The translations under genes and the position numbers were made by a program. The notes below the pieces were generated by a model. The model was not told the origin of the DNA and searched no databases. It worked only from the letters and a program-made list of their open reading frames with translations. This document shows positions 5,597 through 14,795 of a stretch of 60,218 bases of DNA, piece by piece. The stretch is from Spirochaetota bacterium. GTDB lineage: Bacteria; Spirochaetota; UBA4802; JAGODF01. Each line of letters starts with the position of its first letter. Position 1 is the stretch's first letter. Location of the stretch: NCBI GenBank assembly GCA_036846345.1, contig DAIUCD010000027.1:1-60218 (forward strand). Reading direction: 5' to 3'.

Positions 5597-8170
5597 ATGG
5601 TACGAGTAATTCAACTCTTTCTCCTTATATTCTTAACGACAGCGGCCTTTAACCCTGCCGCAACCGCTACCCCATCAGGGAAGGGGCCCTGCAGTCTGGA
5701 GCTGCCGCCGCAATACTATGAAGACAAGACCGGCTCCCTGTCGATCAACGACATCCTTGCCGGGGATAGAAAGATACTGTTCCGTCCCTCACCGGGAAAA
5801 ACGCCCAATTTCGGGTACACAACCTCGGTCTACTGGCTGAAGTTTACCATAAGGAACTCCGGGGAGGACAACCGAGACTGTTATCTCACCATCCCCTACT
5901 CCCTGATCGATGACATACGGCTCTATCTGCCCCAAGGCAGCAATGATTACGTGGAAAAAAAGTCGGGCCGTCTCTATCCCCGGGAATCCCAGGATTATAA
6001 CAACCGGCATTTCAATTTCCGCGTAAACCTGCCGCCGAAAGCCCGGGAGGTCTGTTATCTGCGGGTGATGAGCAAGGATTCCCTTCCAGTCCCCCTGGAG
6101 CTCTGGAGCCATAGCAGCTTCATCCGTGAGGACCGGAGCGACCAGTTCCTTATGGGATGCTATTACGGGATCATCCTGATCATCATCCTCTACAACCTCT
6201 TTATCATGCTCACGATCCGGGACATCAATTATCTCTATTATCTCCTCTGCCTGATCAGCATGCACCTGCTCTTCCAGATGGGCATCAACGGATTGAGCAG
6301 GCAATTATTCGGGACAGACTCGATCTGGTGGTCCCGGGAATCCATTGCCTTTTTTTTCAGTCTCGGATGCCTCTTTCTCATAAAGTTCAGCCAGAATTTT
6401 CTCAATACCCGTAAGACCAACCCCCGACTGCATCTGGTTCTTACAATTGTCATGGGATGGGCCGGTCTGGAGGCGCTCATTTCCCTGTTTCTCGATTATC
6501 ACTGGGCCATACAGTCCGCCGTTCTGATGGGCCAATTCTGCGGTGCCACGGTATGGTTCTCGGGTTTCATCAGTCTGATCAAGGGCAACCGGGCGGCGCG
6601 CTTTTTCCTGCTGGCCTGGACCTCCCTCATCTTCAGTGGCATTCTCTACTCCCTCAAGGTCTGGGGTCTGATCCCCAGCAACATCGTCACGGAGTACGCC
6701 TGGCAGGTCGGTTCGGTGATCCAGGCCGTTCTCCTGGGGATTGCCCTGGGAGACAACATCAACATCCTTCGAAGGGATATGTTCAACGCCCAGACCGCGG
6801 CCCTGGAAAAGGAGAAGGCGGCCCGGGAGGCCCAGGAGCGTTTCAGTGAAACGCTGGAAAAACTCGTTGAGGAGCGGACCAACGATCTCAATGTGGCTCT
6901 TCAGGAGCTTCGCAACCGGGAGCGCCGGATACAGAACGAACTCGACCTGGCATCGGACATTCAACAGGGCATCCTTCCCCCCACCCCCCTCAGCTTCAAC
7001 GGGATCAACATCGTGGCTCATTACAACTCCTTCGAGAAAATCGGCGGCGATTTCTACGATATCTTCCCCATGAAGGGGGGACATCTCTGTGTGCTTCTCG
7101 CCGATGCGTCGGGCCACGGAATCCCGGCGGCCTTCGTTACGGCCCTGGCCAAAATCAGTTTTTCCGAAGCCACCCAGCAGTATCTTTTCCCCCGGGACAT
7201 ACTGAAACAGGCCAACGAGCAGCTCATCAAGGTGGTCAAGACCCAGGAGTACCTGACGGTCTTTCTGGTCGTCATCAGCCCCTCATACGAGGTCTTCTAT
7301 TCCAACGCCTCGCATCAACGGGCCTTCGTTCTCAGAAAGCGGAGCGGTGATGTGGAGGAGTGGGATACCGACGGTCTCTTTGTGGGCGCCGTGCTGGAAG
7401 CCAACGAACGCTACGAGGACAAGCAGGATTTCCTCGATTTCGGGGACCGTGTGATACTCTACACCGACGGTCTGATCGAGGCGCGCAGCAGCTCAGGCGA
7501 GGAGTTCGGCCTTTCTCGTCTCAAAGACCTTCTCAGGGAAACCGGCGGTCTCCCCATAGAACAGGCACGGGAGTCCATCGTCGAGGGATGGCGCGGGTTT
7601 ATCAGTGAATCCAATCTCCGGGACGACGTCTCCTTCCTCCTTCTGGAAGTGGACCCCTCTTACCGGGAGCTGCTGGAATACAAGAATCGGGGTCTCGAGG
7701 AACTGTTTCAAAACCACATCGACGAGGCCATAAGAAATCTTTCGGAAGCCCTCAAGATCGACAACCGGGACGCCAAGGTCCATCACCTGCTGGGGAAATG
7801 CTATTTCCGGGAAAAGAACTACGGGGAATCCATCGAACACATCAACGCCTACCTGGCCCAGAACCAGGAGGATGCGGACGCCTGGCACATGCTGGCCGCC
7901 TGCCAGTTCAACATCAGGGACTTCAGCGCCGCGCTTACCTCGGCACAAAAGGCCTGCTCCATAAGGCAGAACTTCAACAAGGCGCTGCTCATCTGGGGGC
8001 TGTCATTGAAAAAGCTGGACCGTTTTCAAGAATCGAAATCCATATGGGCACAGATACTCCGGACAGAACCGGACAACAGCGTGGCCGCCGCAGAGATGCT
8101 GATGCTGGAACAGCACAAACCGGCAGGGGACAATCCCGAAAACACCACAAAAGGGAATGGGATTCAGTAG
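5597..8170 (+). CDS. 7TM-DISM-type membrane receptor fused to a PP2C/SpoIIE-family serine phosphatase and C-terminal TPR repeats
   Basis: The ORF is open from 5474. The likely start is the ATG at 5597 (MVRVIQLFLLIFLTTAAF… signal-like segment). It has a periplasmic beta-rich region, then 7 hydrophobic helices, a coiled coil, a SpoIIE/PP2C signature (…GGDFYDIF…LLADASGHGIPAA…DGL…) and TPR-like repeats at the C-terminus. Confidence 0.75.
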   Translation: MVRVIQLFLLIFLTTAAFNPAATATPSGKGPCSLELPPQYYEDKTGSLSINDILAGDRKILFRPSPGKTPNFGYTTSVYWLKFTIRNSGEDNRDCYLTIPYSLIDDIRLYLPQGSNDYVEKKSGRLYPRESQDYNNRHFNFRVNLPPKAREVCYLRVMSKDSLPVPLELWSHSSFIREDRSDQFLMGCYYGIILIIILYNLFIMLTIRDINYLYYLLCLISMHLLFQMGINGLSRQLFGTDSIWWSRESIAFFFSLGCLFLIKFSQNFLNTRKTNPRLHLVLTIVMGWAGLEALISLFLDYHWAIQSAVLMGQFCGATVWFSGFISLIKGNRAARFFLLAWTSLIFSGILYSLKVWGLIPSNIVTEYAWQVGSVIQAVLLGIALGDNINILRRDMFNAQTAALEKEKAAREAQERFSETLEKLVEERTNDLNVALQELRNRERRIQNELDLASDIQQGILPPTPLSFNGINIVAHYNSFEKIGGDFYDIFPMKGGHLCVLLADASGHGIPAAFVTALAKISFSEATQQYLFPRDILKQANEQLIKVVKTQEYLTVFLVVISPSYEVFYSNASHQRAFVLRKRSGDVEEWDTDGLFVGAVLEANERYEDKQDFLDFGDRVILYTDGLIEARSSSGEEFGLSRLKDLLRETGGLPIEQARESIVEGWRGFISESNLRDDVSFLLLEVDPSYRELLEYKNRGLEELFQNHIDEAIRNLSEALKIDNRDAKVHHLLGKCYFREKNYGESIEHINAYLAQNQEDADAWHMLAACQFNIRDFSAALTSAQKACSIRQNFNKALLIWGLSLKKLDRFQESKSIWAQILRTEPDNSVAAAEMLMLEQHKPAGDNPENTTKGNGIQ

Positions 8171-8697
8171 AGCTTATATCCCTTTCGAGCCGTAAGGACA
8201 CCCTCCCGCTTTATTTTATCCGGGATATCCACCATGGCCCGTTTGGCGGTGAAGCCGCTGAACTCCAGGGAGAGCTTAAGGCGCAGCATATCCCCGCTCA
8301 TCTCCAGTATGGTAAAATGCCCCTGAGCCTTTTCCGTCTCAATGCTTCCCACCTGGCCGCCCCGGGCGTACCAGATCTCCACGCCCTCTTCCCCGGCGGA
8401 ATACTCCTTACCGGTCGTCAGGCTTTTAGGCAGGGTGATGTTGAAGTTTTCGAAAATATACTCCGTACGGAAGTACAGGGAGCTCTGAAAATAACTCTTG
8501 ATCTCCCGCCCCTTTTCGGTCTCGGCGAGGGTTGCTCCGAACTGGTCGAAGGTGGGACTGGTTACGTACTCAAAACCGACGTGATTGTGTCCGGAACCGC
8601 ATGAGAACAAAAGAAGTAAAACCGCGGCAAGGCCCAGCAGGTGCGAAATCCTACCGCTTCTGTGTTTAACGACGCTACTTGATGATCTTGTTTTCAA
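8164..8697 (-). CDS. Lipoprotein (signal peptide + lipobox LLFSC), unknown function
   Basis: 177 aa. N-terminal Arg/Ser-rich n-region, hydrophobic h-region and a Cys lipobox. It overlaps the upstream giant gene's 3' end by 23 nt (8675–8697), which suggests co-transcription. Confidence 0.5.
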   Translation of the reverse strand: MKTRSSSSVVKHRSGRISHLLGLAAVLLLLFSCGSGHNHVGFEYVTSPTFDQFGATLAETEKGREIKSYFQSSLYFRTEYIFENFNITLPKSLTTGKEYSAGEEGVEIWYARGGQVGSIETEKAQGHFTILEMSGDMLRLKLSLEFSGFTAKRAMVDIPDKIKREGVLTARKGYKLY

Positions 8698-11600
8698 CCT
8701 TTACCTCCCAGAGGACGATGTCAGGCAGTTTCAGATTCAGGGAATCCAGGAATTCCCCAACCTTGTTCCTGTCGAGCAGCGTGGGGTCGCTCTCCAAGCG
8801 GAACTTGGAGGAAGTCACATAACTGTTCAGCTTCTCGAAGAGGCGGTTTTTCAGCAGGTTCTGCCACTCCAGAGATCCCCGCTTCTCGAAGTAATCATAG
8901 AAGGCGAACTTGTCCTTGAAAGTCGGGAGTTCCACCTGATCGATTTTCCATTTAGGAAGAGTCACATGGGCCCCGGCGGAAACGGTTTCCCGGGATTTGG
9001 TTATGGTATCCCGAATGGCGTTGACGAGAAAATTCCGCACGCCGGATTCGTTTTCCAGGAAGAAGACCAGCTCCTCCATATTGTTGAACTCCGGCGCCTT
9101 CACGAATTTTTCTATGTACTGATCCTTGGTCATGTTCTGTTCCCGGGCGCGGTCACCGGTGCCGTCGCCGTCCAGGATGTCCCGAATCACCAGGGAATAT
9201 TCCCGCCGGAACTGGAAGGTGTTGCTGGAGGGATTGCGCGCCAGCATCCCCAGCGCATTCACGGCATCCATCAGCGAGTCGATGGAGGGGTTCTCATAAC
9301 CCCCGCTGTCCAGGATCTTCTTCTCCACGCCCAGGACCACCTTTTTATAGTCCTCCCTTGCCTCGATGTCCTTCAGCAGGTCCGCCAGAACCCCCTCGTA
9401 TCGATACACATCACCCTCCTTTTCCAAAACCTTGAGGAGCACCAGACCCGCCCAGAGCCGGGCCGGATTGAGATAGTTGGTGATGCGGAAGGGATCCTGA
9501 AAGTACCTGGCGTCAAAGTCGGGATGATTGAAGCAATGCAGAGGGTGGCTCTTTTCCTCGATGAGGGCGTGATAGTCCGCCGCCGAATCCTTCAGCGAAT
9601 TGATCTTGAAGATAGGATACCCCAGCAGTATGCCGATGGAGATGATTTCATAGGGTTTGCAGAGATTGGGTACCTCGAAGGTCTCCACGCTGATGTTGGG
9701 CTGGGCCAACTCGCGTTTCTTGTAATGGTCCATGCGCTCGGGAAGATCGTTGACGGCACCCTCCCCGGGATCATCGCCCCCCTCGTAGGTGTCGATGGGG
9801 AAGTTCGTGACGGTCCGGTAATACTCCATCGACTCAAGACCAGTGGGATCGATGTATATGTAGGGACGGGAATAGCCGTCCAGTTTTTCCAGGAGCTTCT
9901 TGAGGGGGATTTTTTTCTCGTCAAGCATCTGCTTGATGGAGATGTTCTCGAAGTTAAAACCCTCGAAGCGGGAGTGAATGATCTTGAAGATTTTCTTCCT
10001 TATCTTCTCTATGTTGATCTTGAGTATGCTCGCCTCGCTGAGGTTGTAGCCGTCCTCCATCGTGGCGCCCTCTGTTCCGTACAGGACCTGTTTGATCTCC
10101 TCCAGGGACTTCTCCAGGAGATTCCCGTACTGGCTCTGAATAAGCTCCTTCACTTCAGCACCGGACATTTCCAGCACCGATAAGCCCTCGGTGGCGATCA
10201 GGTAAGTCTCGATGAACTGTTCCTTGTCGTCCTCACGGTCCATCTGCACGAAATCAATATCGTTGCAGAGATCCTCGATGGAAAGCCGCGAGTAGAAGTA
10301 GCGCTCCAGGAACGTATCGATCTCCCCCGCGTTGATGAGATAGAAATAGAGCGGGTTCTTCTTCTCCAGGAGGTCGAACTTGTCCTTCTCGATGTCCTCC
10401 TTCATCTGATTTAACAGGGCCACCACCTTGTCCTTGAGTATGTTAACCTCGATGTTCTTCAGATTGAAGAGAAGCGCCTTGAAATCCCGGACGAAGGATT
10501 CCGCCGAGGTGAGCATGGCCTCGAAGGTGAGCTGGCTGAAGTTGAACTGGGCCATCTCGATGAGGGCCTGGGGCAGGGAAGTGTCGGAGAGCCCACCGGA
10601 CTCCACCATCTCCACGAGCTTTTCCATCTCCTCCGTTGAGTAGCGGGCCAGCGCCACGCGCTCTTTGTAGTATTTCTTCTGATAGAGTTCCAGCTTTTCA
10701 AGGAGCAGGTTGATGACAGCTTCCGCGAAGAGGAACCCCTTCTGAGGATCTTTAATGAACTTGTGAATCTCCGCCGTCAAAACGGAGCGCATCTTTTCCA
10801 GCTCCAGCTGATAGCGCTTCTCCATGCGGGTGAGGAGATTGCGCTTGATCTTCTCCAGTTCCTCCTTGCCGTAGTCCCGGAGTATGCTCTCCATGACCAT
10901 CACGACGCCCCGGGGATCCCCCTTCTGAACGGCCCCCTCAATCTTTTTCTGATAGGAACGGAATTCCGTATCGGTGTCCATCTTGTAATCCGGGTACATG
11001 CGCTCGAAGATGAGCCGGCAGTTGAGCCTCAGGGCTCGGACCAGGCCCCGGTTCAGGTCGCCCATGGTCTCCAGGAGGAGGCGGGATTCCACGTTCTTTA
11101 GGAACGCAGCGGTCATCTTCACCGCGGTGATCTTGTAGCCCATCTCCTTGAGCCGGGGAACCGGATAGATGACGCGGGAGATCCCGAAGGAGTTATAGGC
11201 GGCCTTGCGGCGAGAATTTTCGCTCTTGGGCAGATAGATGGAGGCGCGGGTGGAATCGTTGACCATACGCTCCTCGATGGCTCCCCCAACGGTGGAGGCG
11301 ACAAAAGTGGAGATGAACTGTCCAGTCAATTCCTGAACCTGATCCCGTCCCTGCAGGGAGTTGCCGGCCATGTTTTCCACGTCCAGCAGATAGAGCATGC
11401 CGTCGTCAAAGACGCGGTCCGGCACCTCCACCTCCCTCCCCGAAGGATATCGGGCCCGGAAGCTGTTGCCGCTCATGAAGTAATCGATCTCCTTCAGGGC
11501 CGCGTAGGCATTGGCCCTGGCGTTTCGGTTGTAAACCACCCGCTTGAAGGCCGAGGGGAGGACCAGGATGCCATAGATCCGGGGTGCCGGCCAGTAATCC

Positions 11601-12508
11601 TTGAAGATGTCCCTGACCGTGGCAGCCAGGTCCAGGATCATTCCGTTGCCCGTACCCCCCACTATGGAGCAGGTGATAAAGATGGAGATCTGCCCCTTGC
11701 GCTTGAAGTGCCGCACCCGGAAGCTGAAGGGACGGTTCTCGAAACGGGAACCGCTGATCTCGAAATAGTGCCCCTTCTCATCGGAGGGGAAATTATCAAT
11801 GGCCACCTTCCCCGTAATATGGGGACAGAGCAGCGCCCTGGTCGGCTGATCGGGTTCCAATGCCACGATGGCATGATCCTGCGGGATCTTTTCCGAAAAA
11901 TAATACCGGTCCACCCCCCTCCTGGCGGTAAACTGTATCACCTCATCCTTCTTGTCCTGCTCCTCCTTGATGTCCAGGAGCTGGAAATACTTCGGATCGT
12001 CCGAAAGGGTGGAAAGCCGGTCGCGCTCCTTGATCAGGGCGTCCCGTATGCGCGCCTCGTTGTCGAAATAGGCCAGGCGGCCCAGGGGGCGCGTCTGATT
12101 GGCGCCCTGTCCGGCACGGGTGGAAACATCGTAGACATCGGGATTGGGAAGCCAGTCGAAGCAGGGATCGTTCTTGTATTTGTCCCGAAGGTAATCCAGG
12201 GAAAGGTCCGGAGGTGTGGGGGAGGAGATATAGAGCATCCTCTTTTCCTCCTGAAAGAACTGGTCGGAGGGAAACCGGTAGAATCCCCCCTTGCCCTCAA
12301 TGCTCGTCTCGATGTCGGTGGTGTCGATGCCCACCCAGCGCATGTACCGGTAGGCCTCCGAGGGCATGCTGGATTCGATCCATTTCTTGGCGGCCAGCAC
12401 TCCTTTCATACCGGAACCGCCCACACCGATAATGATGGATTTCCTTACGGTGGGTTTGTCATCCTTGATGACCCTCTGTATGGAACCGTGGAGATCGTCC
12501 TTGCCCAT
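8675..12508 (-). CDS. Giant FtsZ/tubulin-superfamily GTPase-domain protein with a long alpha-helical (coiled-coil-rich) C-terminal extension
   Basis: 1277 aa. There is a T1-like glycine loop (SIIIGVGGSGMKGVLAA) and a T4 tubulin-signature-like loop in the FtsZ context (IFITCSIVGGTGNGMILDLA, compared with FtsZ FITAGMGGGTGTG and tubulin GGGTGSGMG). A possible T7-like segment is YLLDVENMAGN. The remaining ~800 residues are charged and helical. A 4-nt gap separates it from the upstream gene and a 23-nt overlap joins it to the downstream lipoprotein. Confidence 0.7.
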   Translation of the reverse strand: MGKDDLHGSIQRVIKDDKPTVRKSIIIGVGGSGMKGVLAAKKWIESSMPSEAYRYMRWVGIDTTDIETSIEGKGGFYRFPSDQFFQEEKRMLYISSPTPPDLSLDYLRDKYKNDPCFDWLPNPDVYDVSTRAGQGANQTRPLGRLAYFDNEARIRDALIKERDRLSTLSDDPKYFQLLDIKEEQDKKDEVIQFTARRGVDRYYFSEKIPQDHAIVALEPDQPTRALLCPHITGKVAIDNFPSDEKGHYFEISGSRFENRPFSFRVRHFKRKGQISIFITCSIVGGTGNGMILDLAATVRDIFKDYWPAPRIYGILVLPSAFKRVVYNRNARANAYAALKEIDYFMSGNSFRARYPSGREVEVPDRVFDDGMLYLLDVENMAGNSLQGRDQVQELTGQFISTFVASTVGGAIEERMVNDSTRASIYLPKSENSRRKAAYNSFGISRVIYPVPRLKEMGYKITAVKMTAAFLKNVESRLLLETMGDLNRGLVRALRLNCRLIFERMYPDYKMDTDTEFRSYQKKIEGAVQKGDPRGVVMVMESILRDYGKEELEKIKRNLLTRMEKRYQLELEKMRSVLTAEIHKFIKDPQKGFLFAEAVINLLLEKLELYQKKYYKERVALARYSTEEMEKLVEMVESGGLSDTSLPQALIEMAQFNFSQLTFEAMLTSAESFVRDFKALLFNLKNIEVNILKDKVVALLNQMKEDIEKDKFDLLEKKNPLYFYLINAGEIDTFLERYFYSRLSIEDLCNDIDFVQMDREDDKEQFIETYLIATEGLSVLEMSGAEVKELIQSQYGNLLEKSLEEIKQVLYGTEGATMEDGYNLSEASILKINIEKIRKKIFKIIHSRFEGFNFENISIKQMLDEKKIPLKKLLEKLDGYSRPYIYIDPTGLESMEYYRTVTNFPIDTYEGGDDPGEGAVNDLPERMDHYKKRELAQPNISVETFEVPNLCKPYEIISIGILLGYPIFKINSLKDSAADYHALIEEKSHPLHCFNHPDFDARYFQDPFRITNYLNPARLWAGLVLLKVLEKEGDVYRYEGVLADLLKDIEAREDYKKVVLGVEKKILDSGGYENPSIDSLMDAVNALGMLARNPSSNTFQFRREYSLVIRDILDGDGTGDRAREQNMTKDQYIEKFVKAPEFNNMEELVFFLENESGVRNFLVNAIRDTITKSRETVSAGAHVTLPKWKIDQVELPTFKDKFAFYDYFEKRGSLEWQNLLKNRLFEKLNSYVTSSKFRLESDPTLLDRNKVGEFLDSLNLKLPDIVLWEVKVENKIIK

Positions 12509-12512
12509 GGGA

Positions 12513-13397
12513 TTACCCCGTCGTGAACGGATCGATCATCGGGTAGAGACCGTCGTCCGTGGGTGCCCCCGTATCGTATCCGGGATAGATTTTATACAGC
12601 CGAATGAGAAAGTTCTTCTCCACCTTGGGAATGTTGGCCTTGGTCTTCACCTCATAGTCCTGTGTAAAGAGATGGAACTCGAAGTAGCCCCGGGTGAACT
12701 TGCCGTCCTGGTTGAGCCGGTCGCCCACCCGGAACCTGACCGGGTTTTTGGGCTCCAGGGAAGGGAAGGTGGGATCCCCCGCCTCGTCCGGCTGCCGCCT
12801 TACATAAATTCTCTCGCGGGATCCCATCTCCCTGAAACCCTCCAGGCCGGGATAGTAGATGAGGGTCTTGCCGTCCCGCCGCAGGTCCAGCTGATATTCT
12901 TCCACGATGATGTCCGGCATCTCATAAATGTCCCTGTCCCTCTGCCCCTCGATGATGCGGATGAAAACGCTGAGATGATTGTCCATGATTTCAGTGGAGA
13001 AGGTCTTGATGTTACCCTCCGTCTGGCCGATGGTGATGAGTTTTTCCAGAACGTGCTCCTGGGCCAGGGAAAACTTGAAGATCAGCCCGGGATCGGGGAG
13101 TTCCTTGGGTGTGACCTTCCCCTGCACGGCAGGGCGGGCAGGCGTGGGTGCCGCTGCGGGTTTTTCCTCCGCAGGCATCGCCTTGCTCTTACCCGGCATG
13201 ATTTTCTTTCGTATGGCGTGAAATCCCGTACTCAGCTTCCGCTGAAGCACCACGACGATAATCAGAAGAACGATGACAAAGATCAGCGCGAAAACCAGGT
13301 ACTGATAGAAATCGATTTTCTTCTCCAGTTCGTAAATTCTGGGATCTATGTGCGTCATCTGGAAAAAACGGTGTAACAGCTGAATCATATCCGCCAC
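12513..13397 (-). CDS. Single-pass membrane protein with a Pro/Ala-rich linker and a C-terminal globular domain (ZipA-like architecture)
   Basis: 294 aa. Short cytoplasmic N-terminus, one TM helix (YLVFALIFVIVLLIIVVVL), a basic Pro/Ala-rich linker (…AEEKPAAAPTPARPAVQGKVTPKELPDPG…) and a ~190-aa C-terminal domain. Its stop lies 4 nt before the start of the FtsZ/tubulin-like gene. Confidence 0.65.
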   Translation of the reverse strand: MADMIQLLHRFFQMTHIDPRIYELEKKIDFYQYLVFALIFVIVLLIIVVVLQRKLSTGFHAIRKKIMPGKSKAMPAEEKPAAAPTPARPAVQGKVTPKELPDPGLIFKFSLAQEHVLEKLITIGQTEGNIKTFSTEIMDNHLSVFIRIIEGQRDRDIYEMPDIIVEEYQLDLRRDGKTLIYYPGLEGFREMGSRERIYVRRQPDEAGDPTFPSLEPKNPVRFRVGDRLNQDGKFTRGYFEFHLFTQDYEVKTKANIPKVEKNFLIRLYKIYPGYDTGAPTDDGLYPMIDPFTTG

Positions 13398-13448
13398 TCC
13401 TCTTTATATTGGACCGTCACGAAAACCGGAAGCCTTTCTGATTTCATT

Positions 13449-14795
13449 TCAGAGCTGTAGGGCCCGGACGAAAGTATCCGTGGACCCGAAATAGGCTATA
13501 CCGTCCACGATGACCGGTTCCCCGTTGACGTTTCCGTCCGTTGAAAACTTAAAGATCATTTTGCCCGTCCTGACATCCAGCCCGTAAAAGTGATTGTCTT
13601 CTGCCCCGAAGCATATCGTATTTCCCTCGACAAGCGCCTGGGTGCGGATCTTCGCCCCGGTTTTATGAGCCCAGACCTGCTTGCCCGCATGATTGAGACA
13701 ATAGAAGTTCCCATTGTCCGCACCGAAGAAAAAATATTCCTCGTTACCCATCAAATGGGAGATAATACCGCTGTATACCGGTGCCTTTACGATAAAGACC
13801 CAGCGTACGGCCCCGCTCTCCCGGTGAAGGGAAAAGACGCACCCGTCGATGGACGCGGCAGTGACCGAATCCCCCTTCTGGGATATGCAGGGTTTCACCC
13901 GGACAGCTTCATTGGCGGGATAGTCCCAGATCATGTCCACCTTGCTCCCGCCGTAATTGAGGGCGTAGAGATGCCGGTCCTCGGTACCTACATAGATAAC
14001 ACCGGAACTGAGCGCGGGGCTGGAGACCGTTCCGCTGAGGGCGTACTGCCAGAGAATCTTCCCGATGGCCTTGTTGGACTCATCCTGATAGTAGGCTTCG
14101 TAGGCATTGAGCCCCTTGAGGGCCGCCACGATGAGGATCTTCCCAGTGGCGATGGGCTCAGTGAGAATACCGCTGCCCGCCGCACCCTGCCAGAGCACCT
14201 CCGGCTTGAGCGGAGCCCCACCCTCGCGGTGAGCCGCTAATCCCAGCCGAACAGCGTAGATGTTGCCTTCCCGCGTGGTGCAGTAGAGCACGTCCCCGGC
14301 AATGGCCGGCCTTCGTATGATGGAACCCGTAAGCTTGAACTGAACCACCGGTTTCAGCCCGTCTGCTTCGGATCTCAGCACATGCACCTCTCCCGTCTTG
14401 TTGGCAGCGGCCACCAGGGTCAGCCCTTCAGGGGTCTGCACCCGAACCAGCCCCGCCACGATGGGAGCCTTTGTTTTAAAACTGCCGATCTCCCTGCCGC
14501 TGCCTTCCCGCGGCTCTTCAGAAGAGTCCCCCGATTCCAGGTCGCTCAGGGTGTTCGAACTGGAATCCAGGCTTCTCAGTGAAAAGCTCTCATTGACCGC
14601 CAAATCCTTCTTGGGATCGAAGGGCTTGAGGGGTTTGACATGTTTATTCGGGCTCATCAGGCTATCCGTACCGGTATCAAGTTTCCTTTTTATACTATGT
14701 TCCATCTCAGCCGTCAAGCTGAAAATCCCGAAGACGGAAAAAGGCACCCTGTTCGGAGGAAGTGCCTCTGCCCCTTGATGCCGCTTCTTTTTCAT
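13449..14795 (-). CDS. PQQ-repeat (BamB-like) beta-propeller protein
   Basis: The six-frame ORF extends to 15548, but its N-terminal 251 codons are low-complexity and overlap a well-supported plus-strand amidohydrolase. I place the start at the ATG at 14795 (MKKKRHQG…). The C-terminal ~400 aa carry repeated …G.VYVG…D..LYAL… PQQ-type blades. Confidence 0.65.
   Translation of the reverse strand: MKKKRHQGAEALPPNRVPFSVFGIFSLTAEMEHSIKRKLDTGTDSLMSPNKHVKPLKPFDPKKDLAVNESFSLRSLDSSSNTLSDLESGDSSEEPREGSGREIGSFKTKAPIVAGLVRVQTPEGLTLVAAANKTGEVHVLRSEADGLKPVVQFKLTGSIIRRPAIAGDVLYCTTREGNIYAVRLGLAAHREGGAPLKPEVLWQGAAGSGILTEPIATGKILIVAALKGLNAYEAYYQDESNKAIGKILWQYALSGTVSSPALSSGVIYVGTEDRHLYALNYGGSKVDMIWDYPANEAVRVKPCISQKGDSVTAASIDGCVFSLHRESGAVRWVFIVKAPVYSGIISHLMGNEEYFFFGADNGNFYCLNHAGKQVWAHKTGAKIRTQALVEGNTICFGAEDNHFYGLDVRTGKMIFKFSTDGNVNGEPVIVDGIAYFGSTDTFVRALQL

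What the first reader, a model, noticed from the sequence alone, without database searches (positions are those of the whole stretch)
8164..14795. Operon built around a 1277-aa FtsZ/tubulin-superfamily GTPase with a giant helical extension
Four minus-strand genes are tightly coupled, with a 4-nt gap and a 23-nt overlap. The order is PQQ beta-propeller (13449..14795), single-pass membrane protein (12513..13397), 1277-aa protein (8675..12508), lipoprotein (8164..8697). The large protein carries a T1-like glycine loop (IIIGVGGSGMKG) and a T4-like loop in the FtsZ context (IFITCSIVGGTGNGMILDLA, compared with FtsZ FITAGMGGGTGTG and tubulin GGGTGSGMG). Its remaining ~800 residues are charged, helical and apparently coiled-coil. 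It is neither a canonical FtsZ nor a BtubA/B or TubZ-sized protein. It recalls divergent FtsZ-like families (FtsZl1-type) that comparative genomics has proposed to act in membrane remodelling, but that is a recollection, not a search result. Every partner is an envelope protein (membrane tether-like, periplasmic propeller, lipoprotein), so I suggest an uncharacterised membrane-associated cytomotive filament system.
Basis: partly seen in the sequence, partly recalled or inferred. Interest (0 to 1): 0.85.

Follow-up and report, generated by a model that had tools for sequence, protein, structure and literature searches.

The report
Tubulin-like GTPase with membrane-anchor partner

Summary

The partner descriptions need correcting:
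- **Propeller.** It is present in 39 of 49 loci, has no signal peptide, and starts at 14657 rather than 14795.
- **Lipoprotein.** It is found in none of the related loci.
- **"Helical extension".** It is about 400 helical residues followed by a conserved mixed alpha/beta domain.

Most likely this is a GTP-dependent assembly tethered to the cytoplasmic face of the inner membrane. Polymerisation and biological role are untested. I rate it a lineage-specific (Leptospirales) variant of a known but uncharacterised family, of moderate interest.

The parts
8675..12508 (-). FtsZl1/Tubulin_2-family GTPase gene (1277 aa)
11099..12451 (-). Residues 20-470: tubulin/FtsZ-type GTPase domain, core helix and first strand/helix of the second domain
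12401..12427 (-). T1 loop GVGGSGMKG (residues 28-36)
   Evidence: Sequence. G28, G30, G31 and G33 are invariant, including in distant Tubulin_2 proteins.
11630..11668 (-). T4 signature S-IVGGTGNG-ILD (residues 281-293)
   Evidence: Sequence. S281 and G284 are invariant and G285, G287, G289 and D293 are at least 90% conserved across the family. This is the only stretch that also matches PF00091, below its threshold.
11693..11977 (-). Residues 178-272: beta-rich insertion between helix H3 and strand S4
   Evidence: Present in the window, P0046 and P0070. Absent from P0076, P0078, P0213 and all distant Tubulin_2 proteins. Strands in the model.
9869..11086 (-). Residues 475-880: charged helical region, including the long helix 644-714
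   Evidence: 79% helix and 33% K/R/E/D. Model.
8678..9841 (-). Residues 890-1277: conserved mixed alpha/beta C-terminal region with the family-wide G-x-P...Y...L-H...P-D motif (about P965, Y979, H991, D1005)
   Evidence: Invariant columns. The motif also aligns in distant Tubulin_2 proteins. The profile of residues 480-1277 finds only 23 proteins among 1.84 billion representatives, all of this family.
12513..13388 (-). Single-pass membrane anchor with a cytoplasmic FHA-fold domain (291 aa; the GTG at 13397 is an alternative start)
13245..13301 (-). Transmembrane helix of the anchor (residues about 30-48 of the 291-aa protein)
   Evidence: Mean Kyte-Doolittle hydropathy 3.6 over 19 residues. 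The C-terminal flank is more positively charged in 61 of 61 orthologues, which indicates N-out, C-in topology.
12516..13106 (-). FHA-fold beta-sandwich domain of the anchor (residues about 95-291), preceded by a disordered Pro/Ala/Lys-rich linker
13449..14657 (-). Cytoplasmic PQQ-type beta-propeller protein (402 aa) with a conserved N-terminal peptide and an acidic linker
   Evidence: PF13360 PQQ_2 at 73 bits against a cut-off of 27.6, with the BamB equivalog model far below its cut-off. Start and lack of a signal peptide. Present upstream in 39 of 49 loci.
8164..8697 (-). Lipoprotein-like ORF (177 aa). Adjacent and overlapping, but not part of the conserved module
   Evidence: Lipobox LLFSC. 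No Pfam, NCBIfam or PADLOC hit. No homologue in any related locus, and the downstream genes there vary.

Best explanation
This is a conserved module found almost only in Leptospirales-type Spirochaetota genomes. It has three parts.
1. A large cytoplasmic GTPase of the FtsZl1/Tubulin_2 branch of the tubulin/FtsZ superfamily.
2. A translationally coupled single-pass inner-membrane protein. Its short N-terminus faces outward. A 35-45-residue disordered basic and proline-rich linker and an FHA-fold domain face the cytoplasm.
3. In most lineages, a cytoplasmic PQQ-type beta-propeller that carries a conserved N-terminal peptide.

Proposed mechanism: the GTPase binds GTP through intact T1-T6-type motifs and self-associates in the tubulin manner. 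The FHA-fold protein tethers it to the cytoplasmic face of the inner membrane, in the way ZipA, SepF or FtsA tether FtsZ. The propeller acts as an adaptor or regulator. The output would be a membrane-proximal scaffold or remodelling assembly that is separate from cell division.

Shown here: family membership, the predicted fold, the motifs, gene linkage, predicted topology, and the absence of export signals.

Inferred: GTP binding, polymerisation, direct contact between the FHA domain and the GTPase, and the cellular role.
For: Family and fold:
- PF13809 E 7e-45.
- Tubulin_2 is equated with the FtsZ-like proteins of Makarova & Koonin in PMC9871819.
- Foldseek top hits are all tubulin, CetZ or FtsZ.
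- T1, T2-like, T3-like and T4 motifs, the H5 motif and a T7-position Asn (N417) are conserved even in distant family members.

Tether:
- The anchor gene is directly upstream in 52 of 53 loci, and the gap is 12 nt or less in 40 of 55.
- The anchor has a transmembrane helix, a disordered linker and a confident all-beta domain.
- The C-terminal flank is more positive in 61 of 61 orthologues.

Propeller:
- It is conserved in 39 of 49 loci and has no signal peptide.

Wider context:
- FHA genes lie next to FtsZl1 in Planctomycetes, and a PQQ-propeller fused to a kinase lies in the founding haloarchaeal locus.
- The window is ordinary chromosome, with ClpX, Lon, PFK, PEPCK and RND efflux genes, and there is no PADLOC hit.
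Against: - There is no experimental evidence for any FtsZl1 protein in the held literature.
- The T7 catalytic acidic residues that couple polymerisation to hydrolysis are not clearly conserved, and that region has low model confidence (pLDDT 54-57).
- PF00091 is below its threshold. A full-length profile finds no tubulin or FtsZ among PDB sequences. hhalign against one FtsZ sequence is insignificant. The superfamily assignment therefore rests on PF13809 and on a predicted structure.
- The FHA assignment is by predicted fold only. The canonical Arg of the phosphothreonine pocket is Gln in most orthologues, and no Hanks-type kinase motif lies within 8 kb in any locus.
- Physical contact between the three proteins is inferred only from gene linkage.
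- Distribution within the genus Leptospira appears patchy, which is unusual for a core cytoskeletal function.
Confidence: 0.5

Rival explanations
1. The module is an NTP-dependent conflict (anti-phage or immunity) system. The tubulin-like protein would assemble on sensing an invader, as Kaur et al. 2020 proposed for tubulin-plus-coiled-coil proteins linked to GAP1-type GTPases and vWA proteins in Firmicutes and Actinobacteria.
For: - Kaur et al. (PMC7159879) reinterpret tubulin/coiled-coil operons of this general kind as conflict systems.
- Distribution is patchy. The named Leptospira carriers are L. ognonensis, L. ryugenii, strain GIMC2001 and strain 96542, and the rest are metagenome-assembled genomes.
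- Flanking genes differ between genera.
Against: - No PADLOC model hits any of the four proteins.
- None of the defining partners of those systems (GAP1-N2 GTPase, vWA, FNIII, HSP70) is present, and no effector domain such as a nuclease, protease, TIR or pore is present.
- The window neighbourhood is housekeeping genes, not a defence island or mobile element.
- The protein is conserved over its whole length at 50-77% identity, with no sign of diversifying regions.
Confidence: 0.15
2. The large protein is a GTP-regulated switch or a dynamin-like mechanochemical enzyme that does not form tubulin-type protofilaments. Its helical region would act as a stalk, and the FHA-fold anchor would recruit it to the membrane.
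For: - Makarova & Koonin noted that FtsZl1 might form filaments by a novel mechanism or not at all.
- T7 acidic residues are not conserved across the family.
- The architecture of GTPase, about 400 helical residues and a globular C-terminal domain resembles that of large membrane-remodelling GTPases.
- One divergent relative (P0219) has degenerate T1 and T4 motifs yet keeps the C-terminal domain.
Against: - The fold is tubulin/FtsZ, not a P-loop dynamin fold.
- Every experimentally characterised member of that superfamily that I know of self-associates longitudinally (established knowledge).
- The T7-position Asn is conserved.
Confidence: 0.25
3. This is the first reader's model: a four-gene, envelope-spanning system in which a periplasmic propeller and an outer lipoprotein cooperate with the membrane tether and the cytoplasmic GTPase.
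For: - The four ORFs are co-directional and closely spaced in this window, and the lipoprotein ORF overlaps the large gene by 23 nt.
- The lipoprotein ORF has a lipobox.
- OmpA-family partners occur in some FtsZl1 loci, and one related locus has an OmpA gene downstream on the opposite strand.
Against: - The propeller lacks any signal peptide or hydrophobic N-terminus in the window and in about 40 orthologues.
- The lipoprotein has no homologue in any of 54 related loci, where the downstream gene is variable.
- Only about 29 residues of the anchor are predicted to lie outside the membrane.
Confidence: 0.05

Closest known systems
FtsZl1 family (Makarova & Koonin 2010, PMC2875224), equivalent to Pfam Tubulin_2 (PF13809)
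   Same: - PF13809 match far above its threshold.
[quoted passage not shown]
- Membrane-associated partners.
- FHA-domain and PQQ-propeller genes also appear in some planctomycete and haloarchaeal FtsZl1 loci.
   Different: - No spirochaete member was listed in 2010.
- The usual partners (vWA protein, divergent GTPase, OmpA, Ser/Thr kinase) are absent here.
- The invariable partner is instead a single-pass FHA-fold anchor with no Pfam family.
- The main clade carries an extra beta-rich insert of about 95 residues.
- The C-terminal 800 residues are detectable by profile only within this clade.
- The model suggests that a complete two-domain tubulin core is retained, which the 2010 sequence analysis could not detect.
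CetZ (archaeal tubulin/FtsZ-family cell-shape proteins; PDB 3zid, 4b45)
   Different: Only about 15% identity. CetZ is about 340-390 residues, with no helical or C-terminal extension and no beta-rich insert, and it is archaeal. No functional equivalence is shown.
FtsZ with its membrane tethers ZipA, SepF and FtsA
   Same: - Works-like analogy: a tubulin-superfamily GTPase encoded with a dedicated membrane tether.
- Like ZipA (established knowledge), the anchor has an N-terminal transmembrane helix with N-out topology, a basic and proline-rich flexible linker and a C-terminal globular cytoplasmic domain.
   Different: - The globular domain has an FHA fold, not the ZipA fold.
- There is no sequence relation.
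- The GTPase is not FtsZ: PF00091 is below threshold and no FtsZ_C domain is detected.
- M&K note that carriers of FtsZl1 usually also have a conventional FtsZ, so a role in division is unlikely.
Membrane-anchored FHA-like scaffold domains (type III secretion YscD/PrgH family; type VII EssC/YukB)
   Different: The orientation in the polypeptide is the opposite (FHA domain at the C-terminus here). No secretion-system genes are nearby.
Tubulin-containing GAP1-N2 GTPase conflict systems (Kaur et al. 2020, PMC7159879)
   Same: A tubulin-family domain fused to a C-terminal coiled-coil or helical domain, within a conserved multi-gene neighbourhood.
   Different: None of the other components (GAP1-N2 GTPase, vWA, FNIII, HRDC) is present. 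Those systems occur in Firmicutes and Actinobacteria rather than spirochaetes. PADLOC gives no hit.

Membership tests
Tubulin/FtsZ superfamily | Glycine-rich T1 loop and the T4 signature (GGGTG[ST]G or a close variant) | tested here: met
   GVGGSG at residues 28-33 and GGTGNG at 284-289. The glycines are invariant or at least 90% conserved across orthologues and distant Tubulin_2 proteins.
Tubulin/FtsZ superfamily | Two-domain fold: a Rossmann-like GTPase domain, the core helix H7 and a C-terminal (activation) domain | tested here: met
Tubulin/FtsZ superfamily | Match to Pfam PF00091 at its gathering threshold | tested here: not met
   21.6 bits against a cut-off of 33, covering residues 275-342 only. 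No tubulin or FtsZ was found by profile search of PDB sequences.
Tubulin/FtsZ superfamily | T7 loop with catalytic acidic residue(s) that complete the neighbouring subunit's active site | tested here: inconclusive
   An Asn at the T7 position (N417, within EERMVND) is conserved family-wide, but acidic residues after it vary. Local pLDDT is 54-57.
Tubulin/FtsZ superfamily | GTP-dependent longitudinal self-assembly | not testable with these tools
   Requires biochemistry or a multimer structure prediction.
FtsZl1 / Pfam Tubulin_2 | PF13809 match above the gathering threshold | tested here: met
   154.2 bits against a cut-off of 27, E 7.2e-45. All orthologues carry PF13809. Tubulin_2 is equated with FtsZ-like proteins in PMC9871819.
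FtsZl1 / Pfam Tubulin_2 | [quoted passage not shown] | tested here: met
   Model secondary structure. The C-terminal G-x-P...Y...L-H...P-D motif is shared with distant members. Description.
FtsZl1 / Pfam Tubulin_2 | Typical operon partners (vWA protein, divergent GTPase, OmpA-like protein, Ser/Thr kinase). These are frequent but not obligatory. | tested here: not met
   None is found in the window or in the related loci inspected. There is no Hanks kinase motif within 8 kb in any locus.
FHA domain (for the 291-aa anchor) | FHA beta-sandwich fold | tested here: met
FHA domain (for the 291-aa anchor) | Sequence match to the Pfam FHA family or to solved FHA proteins | tested here: not met
   No FHA family at E up to 0.1 in Pfam or NCBIfam. 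The profile search against PDB sequences finds no FHA protein.
FHA domain (for the 291-aa anchor) | Phosphothreonine-binding residues (G-R, S-x-x-H, N-G) | tested here: inconclusive
   The motif is ITIGQxEGNIKTYSTEIIDxHL. Gly is invariant. The Arg position is Gln in most orthologues and Arg in a few (P0197, P0208). Ser and His are invariant but have non-canonical spacing.
BamB / periplasmic PQQ propeller (for the propeller protein) | PQQ-type beta-propeller repeats | tested here: met
   PF13360 at 73.4 bits against a cut-off of 27.6.
BamB / periplasmic PQQ propeller (for the propeller protein) | BamB equivalog score and an export signal or lipobox | tested here: not met
   TIGR03300 scores 90.7 bits against a cut-off of 285. 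The N-terminus is hydrophilic, with no signal peptide in the window or orthologues.
Known anti-phage defence systems (PADLOC-DB) | Match of any component to a defence-system model | tested here: not met
   No hits for any of the four proteins at E up to 0.1.

The most novel reading that the evidence does not exclude
The FtsZl1 protein keeps a complete, assembly-competent tubulin/FtsZ core whose second domain is split by a helical insertion of about 420 residues. Strand S7 and helix H9 would lie at about residues 438-470, and strands S8-S10 would be supplied by residues about 894-964, next to the family-wide G-x-P...Y...L-H...P-D motif.

The protein would polymerise on the inner membrane through a dedicated FHA-fold tether. 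That tether may read a phosphorylated, conserved but disordered loop in the GTPase itself (residues 63-80, TTDIETSIE...YRFP).

This would be a second, non-division tubulin-type membrane cytoskeleton in spirochaetes, and the first mechanistic handle on the whole FtsZl1 family.
Probability: 0.25. Interest if true: 0.8.

Novelty: new variant of a known kind. Interest (0 to 1): 0.55.

Why it matters
FtsZl1/Tubulin_2 is one of the most divergent branches of the tubulin/FtsZ superfamily. It is widespread in bacteria and archaea. The literature available here contains no experiment on it since it was described by computation in 2010. Two incompatible functional readings exist: membrane remodelling and immune or conflict systems.

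The Leptospirales module is an unusually simple version, consisting of the GTPase plus one obligatory membrane anchor and usually one propeller. It also occurs in culturable Leptospira species. That makes several questions directly testable:
- whether these proteins polymerise;
- how they reach the membrane;
- what they do in the cell.

The structure prediction also suggests that the family keeps a full tubulin-type core. Sequence analysis had not been able to show this.

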